Shown: positions 4,727 through 55,039 of the stretch, piece after piece
How the letters are laid out: the number at the start of each line of letters is the position of its first letter
Numbering within the stretch: the stretch's first letter is position 1
NCBI GenBank assembly: GCA_964016885.1
Contig: OZ024764.1
Coordinates: forward strand, 23,064,001-23,128,000
Length of the DNA stretch: 64,000 bases
Source: Eledone cirrhosa
Taxonomy: Eukaryota
Direction of reading: 5' to 3'
The notes under the pieces: model-generated
Databases searched by the model: none
Told to the model about the DNA's origin: nothing
Seen by the model: the letters and a program-made list of their open reading frames with translations, nothing else
Program-made: the position numbers and the translations under genes

Positions 4727-6010
4727 ATGTCGAAAAATATAGTAAAATCAACATTCCACTGTGATATCTGTGGGAAATCATTCTCTCGTAGTGATAACCT
4801 AACTACTCACAAACGTATTCATACAGAAGAGAAGCCATATCAGTGTGATATCTGTGACAAATCATTCAGTCACAGTAGTAACGTCAGAGTTCACAAACGT
4901 ATTCATACAGGAGAGAAGCCATATCACTGTGATATCTGTGGTAAATCATTCAGTCGCAGTAATACCTTAACTACTCACAAACGTATTCATACAGGAGAGA
5001 AGCCTTATAAGTGTGATATCTGTGGTAAATCATTCAGTTACAATACTAGCGTCAGAGTTCACAAACAAATTCATACAGGAGAGAAGCCATATCGCTGTGA
5101 CATCTGTAGTAAATCATTCTCTGACAGAAGTAGCTTCCTTAAACATCAACGTATTCATACAGGAGAGAAACCATATCAGTGTGATATCTGTGACAAATCA
5201 TTCAGTCACAGTAGTAGCGTCAGAGTTCACAAACGTATTCATACAGGAGAGAAGACATATCACTGTGACATCTGTGGTAAATCATTCAGTCAGAGTAATA
5301 CCTTAACTACTCACAAACGTATTCATACAGGAGAGAAACCATATCACTGTGATATCTGTGATAAATCATTCTCTCGTAGTAATAACCTAACTACTCACAA
5401 ACGTATTCATACAGGAGAGAAACCATATCACTGTGATATCTGTGGTAAAACGTTCTCTAAAAACAATAACCTAACTACTCACAAACGTATTCATACAGGA
5501 GAGAACCCATATCATTGTGATATCTGTGGTAAATCATTCACTTGTAGTCAGCACCTAACTACTCACAAACGTATTCACACAGGAGAGAAGCCATATCAAT
5601 GTGATATCTGTGATAAATCATTCAGTGACAGTAGTAGCTTCAGAGTTCACAAACAAATTCATACAGGAGAGAAGCCACATCACTGTGACATCTGTGGTAA
5701 ATCATTCAGTCACAGAAATACCTTAATTACCCACAAACGTATTCATACAGGAGAGATACCATATCACTGTGATATCTGTGGTAATTCATTCTCTCAGAGT
5801 AATCACCTAACTACTCACAAACGTATTCATACAGGAGAGAAGCCATATCACTGTGATATCTGTGGTAATTCATTCTCTCAGAGTAATCACCTAACTACTC
5901 ACAAACGTATTCATACAGGGGAGAAGCGTTATCACTGTGACATCTGTGGTAAATCATTCTCTCCCTGTAGTAACTTAACCAAGCATGTGCGTATTCATAC
6001 AGAAGTTTAG
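4727..6010 (+). CDS. C2H2 zinc-finger protein 1: 15 tandem fingers, no effector domain
   Basis: 427-aa intact ORF: a 10-aa leader, 14 x 28-aa CxxC-x12-HxxxH units with TGEKPY-type linkers, and a terminal finger ending HVRIHTEV. Confidence 0.93.
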   Translation: MSKNIVKSTFHCDICGKSFSRSDNLTTHKRIHTEEKPYQCDICDKSFSHSSNVRVHKRIHTGEKPYHCDICGKSFSRSNTLTTHKRIHTGEKPYKCDICGKSFSYNTSVRVHKQIHTGEKPYRCDICSKSFSDRSSFLKHQRIHTGEKPYQCDICDKSFSHSSSVRVHKRIHTGEKTYHCDICGKSFSQSNTLTTHKRIHTGEKPYHCDICDKSFSRSNNLTTHKRIHTGEKPYHCDICGKTFSKNNNLTTHKRIHTGENPYHCDICGKSFTCSQHLTTHKRIHTGEKPYQCDICDKSFSDSSSFRVHKQIHTGEKPHHCDICGKSFSHRNTLITHKRIHTGEIPYHCDICGNSFSQSNHLTTHKRIHTGEKPYHCDICGNSFSQSNHLTTHKRIHTGEKRYHCDICGKSFSPCSNLTKHVRIHTEV

Positions 6011-6272
6011 CTGTGTCAATATCAACTCATTACATCATACTACTACAACAAATGTGTAGATCCATCATCCTTGCTAAAACTGGGGATAACCTTGTAGGTT
6101 TTACCTAGGACAGGGATCATAAACACCAGGTTTCCATTTTTGAAGTAGTGTTTGAAGATTTTGTGTAAATTAAAGTTTTTCACATTAAACTTTCATTTAT
6201 TATACTTTAACAGGTAAGATATATATTTGTATTTTTAGTAAAAGTTGGGAACTTCTGTAATTTGAACCTTCC

Positions 6273-6278
6273 AATAAA
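6273..6278 (+). terminator. Putative poly(A) signal of ZnF1 (paralogues at 21320, 39925, 55310)
   Basis: AATAAA about 260 nt after the stop, followed by a GT/T-rich tract (TTTTGTTGTTG), in all four genes. Confidence 0.6.
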
Positions 6279-6514
6279 ATGAAAACTTTTGTTGTTGTTA
6301 GTCAGACATTGTCTCAAATATCACAGATTAAACAGATTTTAACAATAACAACAGAAATCAATAACTTGTAAGCCTAATATCTAGCTTCCATTTTAACTAT
6401 TTGATATTGTTGTTCCCCTCCTGTCTCTTCAGGTCTTTTAGATTTCAACTTCTATCTACTGTACTATTCCATCACCAAGGCAACATTCATCTGGCTGGCA
6501 GCTTACATCAACTA

Positions 6515-6655
6515 CAGATCTCCAACCCTTCTTTCTCCAGATAGTCTTGTATCTGTCAGTCCCTCTATATCTTATATTTAACAGGGAGATCTTTTACTCT
6601 CCAACCCTTCTATCTCCAGATAGTCTTGTATCTGTCAGTCCCTCTAGATCTTACA
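6515..6655 (+). repeat. ~79-bp minisatellite inside a decayed minus-strand RTE endonuclease fragment (also 21700-21950, 40290-40720, 55690-55860, 61971-62120)
   Basis: Unit TTATATTTAACAGGGAGATCTTTTACT...CAGTCCCTCTAGATC, with copy number varying between units. Confidence 0.75.
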
Positions 6656-6943
6656 CCTAGTATCTAGTCTATGTTGAGTGGTACGTCGTTCTCCAGTAAA
6701 GGAGTTAATATTCCCAACCATCTGTCTATCCTGTTTTCTGATGAGAATGAAGTCAATCTAGTTTATCTCTTCACCTGATTGAAGTAACTAGATCAAGTAA
6801 CTAGATGGTTTCCTGTAAGTTAGTGTTGCAGTGTTTGTGTCACCATGTAAGGTTTATATCTATTAATATAGAGATGTAGTAAAGTTTTCACTGTTGTATC
6901 TCTATTTTCTAAATATCTTAATAATGTTTCTCTACTATTTCAG

Positions 6944-51991: not shown

Positions 51992-52351
51992 GGAAACGAC
52001 TAGATTTGTAGAAAAAGTAGGGTGAAAGTATACAAAGAGATGTAGTTTCACAGATCTACTCACACCTCACGTTGGGTGGGAATAATTATTTTTCTTATAA
52101 TTCTTGCTATACCCCTTTTACAGTATTTTTTCTATAGACCCCTTAGATACTTGCAATAGACGTTTTATTTCCCAGTATTAGGATTAGGGTTTCCGTTTTC
52201 AGGAAGAAAAGTCGATTGCAAACATCTAAGAGGTCGAGAAATGAAATTAAGGAAAGATAATTATTTCCCAGCCAACTGGAGAAGTGTGTAGCTCTTCTAA
52301 ACTCCGATAATCCTGTCTCCCACTTCTTTATCTACAAATCTAGTCGTTTCC
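51992..52351. mobile_element. Foldback MITE, paralogue of 32812-33171
   Basis: Same TIRs and flanks. Confidence 0.8.
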
Positions 52352-53197
52352 TGCTACTTTGTTCCCTGGGGTATGCCTTAGTATTTGACACCATCTGTCT
52401 CTCTTACTGCCTAATTAGCAAGAAGTAAATCTGTCTCATGTGTTCACCTGATTGGTAGGTTATTAGGTGGTTGGTAGGTTTCTTGAAGTGTTGAAAATGG
52501 TTAGTTCACTTGCATCACAAGAAGCCTCACTCCTTCATCGTTTCTTGAGCCATAACCATGACCACCATGTACCCCAGAATATCCATCCTGGAGCTGTCCA
52601 ACATGACCATTGAAGTCCCCTGCTATTATAATTAGGTCTCTGTCATTGTGGTTATCTCTATTTATTCCTTTTCTACACATGGAGCAGGGCCACTTTCCTG
52701 AAGGTGTCAGGGTCTTCTCTCCTATCCATTAGCACTTTAGTTTTGGCTAAGTATATTCTCAGAACTTACCATTTCAAATTCTATATCTATAGCTGGTCAT
52801 CTACATAGAGAAGTTTCCATAGACAGCCAGTCTTAAACCTCTCTGTTATGGCTAGGAGAACTATGATGAACAACAGTGGGCTAAGAACTAAACCATGATG
52901 AACTCCTACCTGTATCTTCAATTCCTCACTAAACACACTTTACTGACAGCTTCTCACAAGCCATTCTTCTACACCTAATTTCCTTAATCCTTTAGTATAT
53001 AAACTGGCCATATCTGGCCAGAATTGTCTCATATCTTTCTGTTCAATTTGGCCGTTACTGGTCACTTATACTTATGTTAAGGTATTGTTCTCCAAATAAG
53101 TAACATCAAAATTTCATAGATTTGATATTATGTGAGATAAAGCATTTACTGTGAAAATATAATAGTAAATATAGAGTAATGTGAATACTAAAGGGTT

Positions 53198-53296
53198 AAT
53201 CTGATATCACTAATAACTACTTTTATCAGTCAGTATAATCTACTGTCACTAATAACTACTTTTATCAGTCAGTATAATCTAATGTCACTAATAACT
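53198..53296 (+). repeat. 39-bp minisatellite, about 2.5 copies
   Basis: Same unit and flanks as in units 2 and 3. Confidence 0.92.
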
Positions 53297-54175
53297 AACC
53301 TATGTCAGTCAGCACATTCTTCACCAAGGAAGGCCTTAGTATTTATTACAGTCCATTTATCAATATAGAAATATTATATGAAATTTGTACTGATGTATTA
53401 CAAGTTTCTGAGTATCTTATAATGTTCTTTTATTATTTCAGAATACCAGAGGACATTGGCATTAAAGAGCACGTTACATCAGACATATCCTCAACATTAA
53501 CCATTTCTAATGAAAGACACTACCCATCATTTTCAAATAAATTTTGAAAACAATCAAAAATTTGAAGGGATTTAGTAATATAACTAAAGTTCTCAGTATT
53601 AAGCTGCTATTTGGAACATAACTTTGCACAATTTTATGAAGTTACAATGGAAAGTTTTTAGATAAATATAAAGACTGATATGAAAAGGATAAAACACTTT
53701 TATATCAGTTGTTTCATAAACACCATTATTTAAAGACTAAACGAAGCTGTTATACAGAACAGATACAACCTTGTTTATATAAATCTATGGGAGAAATACT
53801 GAAAAATATTCTTTGTAAGATCTTCATATATTGACAAAGTTGATAGTAGATGGAACTACAGGAGTAGAAATATTTCCATTATTACAAGAATAACTAATCA
53901 AATAAAAACCAGAAAAATTAGATTCTTCATTGTCTGGAATATGTACAAGATGATTTTATATGTATATTAAACTTGAAGAGATCTACCAAACAGTTTGTAT
54001 CATCTTTAAATATAAAGAAAGACCAAAGTTGATAGAAGTATATCTGGAGGAATTTGTTTTAGGAATAATATTATAAACATAACGAAGAAAAATATCCATA
54101 TATTGCGAGGAGAAAAATATTAAAATTGTGAATTATGTGAGAAACTGAGGTGATTGATATCTTTTAGTAGGAGTT

Positions 54176-55039
54176 ATGTCGAAAAATATAGTAAAATCAC
54201 CATTCCACTGTGATATCTGTGGTAAATCATTCTCTCGTAGTAATCACCTAACTACTCACAAACGTATTCATACAGGAAAGAAACCATATCACTGTGATAT
54301 CTGTGGTAAATCATTCTCTCAGAGTAATACCTTAACTGATCACAAACATATTCATACAGGAGAGAAGCCATATCACTGTGATATCTGTAACAAATCATTC
54401 AGTCACAGTAGTAGCGTCAGTGTTCACAAACAAATTCATACAGGAGAGAAGCCACATCACTGTGATATCTGTGGTAAATCATTCTCTCGTAGTAGTCACC
54501 TAATTACTCACAAACGTATTCATACAGGAGAGAAGCCACATCACTGTGATTTCTGTGGTAAATCATTCAGTCTCAGTTATACCTTAACTACTCACAAACG
54601 TATTCATACAGGAGAGAAGCCATATCACTGTGATATCTGTGGTAAATTATTCAGTCACAGTAATACCTTAACTATCCACAAACGTACTCATACAGGAGAG
54701 AAGCCATATCACTGTGACATCTGTGGTAATTCATTCTCTCATAGTAATCACCTAATGATTCACAAACGTATTCATACAGGAGAGAAACCATATTACTGTG
54801 ATATTTGTGGGAAAGCATTCTCTCAAAAATACAACCTAACTACTCACAAACGTAGTCATACAGGAGAAAAACCATATCATTGTGATATCTGTGGTAATTC
54901 ATTCTCTCAAAGTTATACCTTAACTACCCACAAACGTACTCATACAGGAGAGTAGCCATATCACTGTGACATCTGTGATAAATCATTCTCTCGAAGTGGT
55001 ACCTTAACCAGGCATGTGCGTATTCATACAGAAGTTTAG
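54176..55039 (+). CDS. C2H2 zinc-finger protein 4: 9 fingers, an in-frame TAG (54953-54955), then an intact 10th finger
   Basis: 259-aa ORF; the linker reads GAG TAG CCA instead of GAG AAG CCA; the frame continues [27 protein letters not shown] to 55039. Confidence 0.85.

What the first reader, a model, noticed from the sequence alone, without database searches (positions are those of the whole stretch)
4727..55039. Zinc-finger cassette array: constant frame, shuffled fingers
Seen: the four genes have near-identical flanks, N-termini (MxKNIVKS[P/T]F) and terminal fingers (LT[K/R]HVRIHTEV), but carry 15, 14, 12 and 10 fingers with different recognition helices. Individual fingers recur across genes in different order. 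[14 protein letters not shown] is F13 and F14 of ZnF1 and F7 of ZnF3. HSSSV.VH then QSNTL is F6-F7 of ZnF1 but appears reversed as F2-F3 of ZnF4. RSNHL is F6 and F8 of ZnF3 and F1 of ZnF4. Known: C2H2 genes are hugely expanded and clustered in coleoid cephalopods, and PRDM9-type arrays evolve as 84-bp minisatellites. Inference: fingers are exchanged between paralogues by recombination or conversion through the constant backbone, making new DNA-binding specificities far faster than the flanks diverge.
Basis: partly seen in the sequence, partly recalled or inferred. Interest (0 to 1): 0.75.

Follow-up and report, generated by a model that had tools for sequence, protein, structure and literature searches.

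The report
Zinc-finger gene cluster remixing finger blocks
These four genes belong to a run of about 220 near-identical zinc-finger genes whose finger arrays gain and lose whole fingers and sometimes take fingers from sister genes, which would keep producing new DNA-binding proteins much as young mouse KRAB zinc-finger clusters do.

Summary
The four genes belong to a ~4.7-Mb cluster of about 220 copies; I parsed 159.

Close copies (flanks 0.4% apart) differ by whole-finger indels in 21 of 60 pairs. Exchange between genes is real. Paralogue variants lose linkage with distance in the flanks, and two arrays carry polarised tracts from other genes.

It is not array-specific or free shuffling. The 'constant frame' is likely itself homogenised.

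Contact residues show moderate excess change (omega 1.4-2.2), and zinc ligands are conserved. It is not PRDM9. The closest known case is young mouse KZFP clusters. The scan noted the same pattern before on other DNA of this genome. Expression, targets and polymorphism are untested.

The parts
4727..6010 (+). Z1: intact single-ORF C2H2 gene, 15 fingers; F13/F14 a recent tandem duplication (copies L026 and L031 have 14)
19863..21053 (+). Z2: intact ORF, 14 units, 12 with full zinc ligands; K-rich (KNTKLTR-type) subfamily; block twin L012 has one more unit
20478..20636 (+). Z2 F8-F9: degenerate in-frame units, shared across the KNTKLTR subfamily
38631..39662 (+). Z3: intact ORF, 12 fingers; first finger carries the CRDSLTN helix, likely by deletion of the RSNQLTT/YGSSIRV fingers that its relatives keep
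54176..55039 (+). Z4: 10 units, 9 translated
54953..54955 (+). in-frame TAG in the linker before Z4 F10; absent from block twin L014
6011..13528 (+). 3' flank of the Z1 unit, shared with the other units (87-94% identical), with 48- and 71-bp minisatellites
17756..19862 (+). 5' flank of the Z2 unit with 39-bp minisatellite, shared with the Z3 and Z4 units (mostly 93-96%)
21054..23958 (+). 3' flank of the Z2 unit
32712..38630 (+). 5' flank of the Z3 unit, interrupted by a LINE RT ORF at 34173-35804 (-) and an expanded 39-bp minisatellite at 35939-37288
39663..47583 (+). 3' flank of the Z3 unit
51892..54175 (+). 5' flank of the Z4 unit
55040..61971 (+). 3' flank of the Z4 unit

Best explanation
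The four genes are members of a ~220-copy tandem cluster of finger-only C2H2 genes whose 84-bp arrays gain and lose whole fingers and blocks in frame and take tracts from sister genes, likely through unequal recombination and gene conversion, which would generate new DNA-binding specificities. Steps: (1) Shown: 15-19 kb units and multi-gene blocks are duplicated. (2) Shown: arrays change by in-frame gain or loss of 1-6 fingers, about once per 1% of flank divergence. (3) Shown: paralogues exchange sequence across the whole unit, flanks included, and sometimes replace one or two fingers. (4) Inferred: this exchange keeps the flanks and terminal fingers about 4% apart while an older pool of ~50-90 finger types persists as conserved multi-finger blocks. 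(5) Partly shown: purifying selection keeps the zinc ligands and reading frame, with moderate diversifying pressure at helix positions -1, 2, 3 and 6. (6) Inferred, untested: the proteins bind repeats or transposons and act as lineage-specific regulators or repressors, as proposed for other large ZNF families.
For: Cluster size: 219 terminal motifs and 228 start motifs; all listed places lie on C25. 159 genes were parsed with 6-28 units, one outlier excluded. Indels: 26 finger-sized gaps in 21 of 60 close-pair edges (24 after removing one event counted three times), all multiples of 84 nt within 3 nt. Exchange: r2 among paralogue variants in the 3' flank falls from 0.133 (<50 bp) to ~0.033 (>900 bp); 0 of 300 permutations reach this decay even for sites >=150 bp apart. 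5' and 3' flank distances are uncorrelated (rho 0.02, 5203 pairs), and 24 of 159 pairs close on one side are discordant on the other. L069 differs from 6 sisters at 14 consecutive sites in 103 bp, all matching L152/L104/L146/L149, which replaces F1-F2 (Poisson P 7e-10). L080 differs from 5 sisters at 6 sites over -71..+91, all matching its neighbour L079, which changes the F1 helix (P 0.007). A crude no-exchange simulation at the observed rates gives array cost ~5 and 14-21 common types, against 9.65 and 47 observed. Selection: omega 1.4-2.2 at contact positions, 0.3-0.4 at C/H/F/L core, ~0.9-1.4 elsewhere; contact vs other backbone P 0.002, core vs synonymous P 2e-8. 117 of 158 ORFs are intact.
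Against: Of 23 replaced-finger pairs in close paralogues, 13 can be explained within one gene, 2 only from outside, and 8 are unresolved, so cross-gene transfer is a minority route or hard to see. Only 7 of 25 painted chimeric arrays had flanks switching as a single crossover predicts, about chance. Adjacent genes are no more alike than distant ones (52 pairs). The linkage decay in the 5' flank is not significant beyond 150 bp (42 of 300 permutations). Omega was counted on spanning-tree edges, and conversion inflates change at already diverse sites. The simulation has no selection and an arbitrary root array. 41 of 158 genes are broken. No expression or binding data were obtained.
Confidence: 0.7

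Rival explanations
1. Vertical descent only: one long ancestral array was copied, and each copy then lost, duplicated or converted fingers within itself; shared fingers reflect ancestry.
For: 13 of 23 replaced fingers are explicable within the gene. Finger order is conserved: 283 distinct adjacent pairs vs 550-599 in shuffles. Many apparent chimeras such as L038 can also arise by deletions from a longer array.
Against: Linkage decay and flank discordance. Polarised tracts with outside donors. 47 common finger types vs 14-21 in the no-exchange simulation at observed rates; ten-fold rates match the array cost but give 150-297 types vs 89 observed.
Confidence: 0.12
2. One reading: the finger backbone is a dedicated recombination substrate that freely shuffles single fingers between genes inside a fixed frame, PRDM9-like, perhaps also in sperm or neurons.
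For: 701 of 1306 units occur identically in two or more representative genes (also expected from ancestry). Cross-gene tracts exist. r2 decays within the 84-bp unit, from 0.10 to 0.015.
Against: Cluster density is equal in arrays and flanks. r2 across the array (0.022-0.038) equals r2 at the same distance in flanks. Order is block-conserved, and types have preferred positions. PRDM9 statistic is 0.29-0.38 vs 0.41-0.68 in the rows seen in PMC5519329. Within-gene unit identity is only 79-86%.
Confidence: 0.1
3. Mostly neutral turnover of a selfish or drifting tandem repeat, with many copies non-functional; part of the near-identical copies and tracts may be assembly artefacts such as uncollapsed haplotypes or polishing errors.
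For: 41 of 158 genes are broken. Non-core backbone omega is about 1. Some pairs are 100% identical over 3.5 kb (L144/L145, L126/L127). Read support for the L069 tract was inconclusive.
Against: Core residues are under purifying selection. The first 50 coding bases have heterozygosity 0.014 vs 0.013-0.057 in the upstream windows and ~0.05 just before the ATG; ATG is kept in 105 of 106 genes. Blocks recur at many different offsets and in 3-9 copies, which uncollapsed haplotypes would not give.
Confidence: 0.08

Closest known systems
Young mouse KRAB-ZFP clusters (bioRxiv 10.1101/2025.02.26.640358, passages seen; PMC5363842, passages and section 7 seen)
   Same: Multi-megabase cluster built by segmental duplication of multi-gene blocks. 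Finger arrays are the least conserved part, with duplications and deletions of single fingers and of runs of 2-7 fingers. Coding genes and pseudogenes are mixed. NAHR is the proposed driver.
   Different: No KRAB or other effector domain in the ORFs. About 220 genes with flanks only ~4% apart. Inter-paralogue tracts replacing fingers are shown here by polarity; in the passages seen, conversion is only named as a possible duplication route or not at all. No TE targets are shown here.
PRDM9 zinc-finger minisatellite (PMC5519329, passages seen)
   Same: 84-bp coding repeat turning over by duplication, deletion and conversion, with amino-acid diversity peaking at helix contact positions.
   Different: No PR/SET domain on this contig (0 of 15 matches). 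Fingers within a gene are only 79-86% identical. Share of diversity at contact sites is 0.29-0.38 vs 0.41-0.68. Hundreds of paralogues rather than one locus. Allelic polymorphism not tested.
Coleoid C2H2 expansions (PMC12513265, first part and passages; PMC9068888, passages) and zebrafish FiNZ-ZNFs (PMC10547256, passages)
   Same: Large clustered, lineage-specific C2H2 families. Positive selection at base-contacting residues and predicted TE binding are reported for FiNZ-ZNFs, and predicted TE binding for octopus ZNFs.
   Different: The cephalopod paper PMC12513265 holds 0 occurrences of 'recombination', 'gene conversion' or 'positive selection', so it does not treat finger-level dynamics.

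Membership tests
Tandem poly-C2H2 (Kruppel-type) ZNF | Tandem C2H2 fingers with TGEKP-type linkers | tested here: met
   (PF13465, PF00096)
Young rapidly evolving ZNF cluster (KZFP/FiNZ-like behaviour) | Large tandem cluster built by segmental and multi-gene block duplication | tested here: met
Young rapidly evolving ZNF cluster (KZFP/FiNZ-like behaviour) | Finger gain and loss between close paralogues | tested here: met
   21 of 60 close pairs
Young rapidly evolving ZNF cluster (KZFP/FiNZ-like behaviour) | Excess amino-acid change at DNA-contact residues | tested here: inconclusive
   omega 1.4-2.2 at contacts, P 0.02 vs synonymous; conversion biases this upward
Young rapidly evolving ZNF cluster (KZFP/FiNZ-like behaviour) | Binding and repression of transposons | not testable with these tools
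   no binding or expression data
KRAB-ZFP | N-terminal KRAB domain | tested here: not met
   ORFs have 9 residues before F1, and no KRAB appears among the top 25 Pfam families shown per protein; an in-frame stop lies 21 nt before ATG in 148 of 158 genes; an upstream spliced exon is not excluded
PRDM9 | PR/SET domain (with KRAB/SSXRD) in the same gene | tested here: not met
   0 of 15 PF21549 matches lie on contig C25
PRDM9 | Highly homogenised fingers with diversity concentrated at contact residues | tested here: not met
   within-gene identity 79-86%; statistic median 0.29 (-1,3,6) or 0.38 (with 2), maximum 0.49, vs 0.667, 0.684 and 0.414 in rows seen
PRDM9 | Extreme allelic polymorphism of the array | not testable with these tools
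   short contigs and sparse RAD reads did not resolve arrays

The most novel reading that the evidence does not exclude
The cluster works as one recombining repertoire. About 220 effector-less finger genes share a pool of ~50-90 old finger types arranged in conserved blocks. Cluster-wide conversion plus in-frame finger gain and loss gives individuals different sets of DNA-binding specificities at PRDM9-like speed, an adaptive germline library against transposons or for neural regulation that evolved without KRAB.
Probability: 0.2. Interest if true: 0.8.

Novelty: new variant of a known kind. Interest (0 to 1): 0.5.

Why it matters
How new zinc-finger specificities arise is an open question, usually studied in mammalian KRAB clusters. 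This cluster holds dozens of copy pairs under 1.5% apart in one genome, so the rate and kind of finger change can be counted directly, and transfers between genes can be polarised. It suggests that flank identity is a misleading clock for such clusters. It also gives a concrete mechanism for the cephalopod-type C2H2 expansion, if the octopus assignment holds. The basic behaviour is already known from mouse clusters, and function is untested.

Tried and rejected
Single-crossover chimera test: only 7 of 25 painted chimeras had matching flank switches, about chance, so single crossovers inside arrays are rejected as the main route. Exact-donor search for 22 substitution clusters was mostly uninformative because tracts span unit borders. 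Neighbour effect: none. MAFFT flank distances were distorted by insertions and were replaced by BLAST-based distances. The protein homologue search returned generic vertebrate and other ZNFs at 40-64% identity and said nothing on taxon or N-terminal extension. No RNA holder was listed. Laying contigs and RAD reads on the Z4 unit and on the L069 tract could not resolve arrays or confirm the tract. Literature searches that found no paper on finger exchange in cephalopod C2H2 clusters. The library lacks most subscription papers, and bioRxiv supplements were not seen. The cnidarian PRDM9 preprint (passages) concerns full-length PRDM9 paralogues and does not apply. Not run: GENECONV, PAML, a finger-vs-flank likelihood tree test, structure prediction and motif prediction.
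Full report
Observation. Six-frame translation shows four + strand C2H2 ORFs. The finger table confirms the shared N-terminus, the shared terminal finger, unit counts of 15, 14, 12 and 10, and the named recurring helices. Z2 F8-F9 lack zinc ligands, and Z4 has TAG at 54953-54955 before F10, so 48 of 51 units are intact and translated. 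Each gene sits in a 15-19 kb duplicated unit. Flank divergence among the four is 2.8-5.4%, and Z1 shares only ~210 bp upstream. Of 50 units, 18 are nearest to a unit of another window gene, 3 tie and 29 are nearest within their own gene. So the examples show a shared vocabulary, but not recent transfer among these four genes.

The cluster. The window lies at G000:C25:23,064,001-23,128,000. The terminal motif occurs 219 times and the start motif 228 times; the first 100 places listed in each are all on C25. Hits span 19.1-23.9 Mb. I fetched 157 stretches and parsed 155, plus the 4 window genes. L151 and L090 did not parse, and L103 (41 units, broken) was dropped, leaving 158, about 70% of the family. 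Genes have 6-28 units, and 117 of 158 are intact. Median flank divergence is 3.5% (5') and 3.9% (3'), and the genes fall into 106 groups. Multi-gene blocks recur at offsets such as 867, 908, 454 and 1081 kb; Z1, Z3 and Z4 have twins 908 kb away that are 0.06-0.25% apart.

Recent change. Over 60 spanning-tree edges between close copies (mean flank divergence 0.43%), 21 pairs differ by finger-sized gaps. There are 26 events, or 24 after removing one deletion counted three times, all multiples of 84 nt within 3 nt. That is about one gain or loss per 1% of flank divergence. In the window's own families, Z1 has one more QSNHLTT finger than L026 and L031, Z2 has one fewer than L012, Z3 has 12 fingers against 8 in L062, and Z4's twin L014 differs from L032 at F7 and F9. 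Substitution clusters number 22 in 63 kb of coding sequence and 49 in 153 kb of flank, the same density.

Exchange between genes. Among 106 representatives, r2 between variant sites in the 3' flank decays from 0.133 to ~0.033 within 900 bp. Across the array it is 0.022-0.038, like flank sites at the same distance. The decay beats 300 of 300 permutations in the 3' flank at all distance cut-offs; in the 5' flank it does not beyond 150 bp. 5' and 3' flank distances are uncorrelated, and 24 of 159 pairs close on one side are discordant on the other. Of 14 candidates examined, two array tracts are cleanly polarised. L069 differs from six sisters at 14 consecutive sites matching L152, L104, L146 and L149, which replaces F1-F2. 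L080 differs from five sisters at six sites matching its neighbour L079, which changes the F1 helix. L072 shows a clean flank tract; L109, L105 and L003 are suggestive; the rest are unclear. Against a dominant role: of 23 replaced fingers, 13 can arise within the gene, 2 only from outside, and 8 are unresolved. Only 7 of 25 chimeric arrays had matching flank switches, and neighbours are no more alike than distant genes.

Not free shuffling. With 89 finger types, there are 283 distinct adjacent pairs against 550-599 in 200 within-gene shuffles. 72% of adjacencies recur in three or more genes against 34-44%, and reciprocal orders number 33 against 125-159. Types have preferred positions, and first and last fingers draw on small sets. 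Arrays are therefore inherited and moved as blocks.

Age of the pool. Distinct units differ by 18% overall but by 7.6% at four-fold sites, against ~4% in flanks. A crude simulation without exchange between genes, at the observed rates, gives array cost ~5 and 14-21 common types against 9.65 and 47 observed. Ten-fold rates match the cost but give 150-297 types against 89 (3 roots x 3 rates x 3 runs, no selection). I infer that the finger pool is older than the flank divergence suggests, and that the constant frame is kept constant by conversion and recent block turnover.

Selection. On spanning-tree edges among 791 distinct units, omega is 1.4-2.2 at positions -1, 2, 3 and 6, 0.3-0.4 at C/H/F/L core, and about 0.9-1.4 elsewhere. 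Contact vs other backbone gives P 0.002, contact vs synonymous P 0.02, and core vs synonymous P 2e-8. Conversion inflates the contact figure, so positive selection is suggested, not proven. The N-terminal codons are less variable than the adjacent upstream sequence, and ATG is kept in 105 of 106 genes.

Mechanism. Misaligned pairing between 84-bp units, within a gene or between copies, would delete or duplicate whole fingers in frame, and short conversion tracts would copy helices from the same or another gene. The same ectopic exchange acts on the flanks. Selection would remove frameshifts and ligand loss and keep varied contact residues. The products are finger-only proteins; by analogy with KZFPs and FiNZ-ZNFs, they likely bind repeats or transposons (inferred; PMC10547256 passages predict TE binding for octopus ZNFs). 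No expression or binding evidence was obtained.

Comparison. Young mouse KZFP clusters show block duplication and array duplication and deletion, so the behaviour is of a known kind. This cluster lacks KRAB and PR/SET. Its PRDM9 statistic is 0.29-0.38 with 79-86% within-gene identity, against 0.41-0.68 in the PRDM9 rows seen, so it works partly like PRDM9 but is not PRDM9. Cephalopod C2H2 clusters are described, but my searches found no paper on finger-level exchange in them; subscription papers and preprint supplements were not seen. The octopus assignment is recalled or taken from others' notes and was not tested (one search was uninformative). The scan reported the same pattern on other pieces of this genome; those notes are not independent support.

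Verdict. A real, young and very large zinc-finger cluster with fast block-wise array turnover and demonstrable, non-array-specific exchange between paralogues. It is a new variant of a known kind; interest 0.5.

Noticed in passing
window 20478-20636 (Z2 F8-F9) and L007, L012, L018, L084, L092, L099, L124, L147: A degenerate, shortened finger followed by an HVSTLT unit is kept in frame across the whole KNTKLTR subfamily, separating a K-rich N-terminal array from a C-terminal array; possibly a retained spacer.
   Followed up: partly
window 54953-54955; L037, L075; L095, L065, L109: The same TAG context in the linker before the last finger occurs in Z4 and in L037/L075, which have different arrays; a TGA linker stop is shared by L095/L065 and L109. 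Either recurrent mutation or spread by conversion.
   Followed up: no
L139, L153, L156, L157, L006, L008, L048: The same 2-nt loss at the end of a linker recurs in several genes and finger types.
   Followed up: no
window 404-3189 (+): Broken LINE with endonuclease, RT and a PHD-finger match (E 7.6e-7) inside the RT region; earlier scan notes describe this in RTE elements. It lies where Z1's unit lacks ~2 kb of the upstream flank that the others share.
   Followed up: no
window 61973-64000: Extra copy of the 3' flank (92% identical to 55712-57164) with no finger gene in front of it; a partial unit duplication.
   Followed up: no
window 18605-19251, 35939-37288, 53197-53312: A 39-bp minisatellite upstream of Z2, Z3 and Z4 has 16.6, 34.6 and 2.9 copies and gives long low-complexity ORFs; a second fast-changing repeat in the 'constant' flank.
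   Followed up: no
window 44583-45080 (-), 59106-60212 (-), 31059-32390 (+), 50061-51368 (+): Transposon-like ORF remnants duplicated with the units. They look like a hAT-type transposase and a retroelement endonuclease from recall only; no Pfam match.
   Followed up: partly
L144/L145 and L126/L127: Adjacent pairs identical over 3.5 kb of flank and the whole ORF; very recent duplication or assembly duplication.
   Followed up: no
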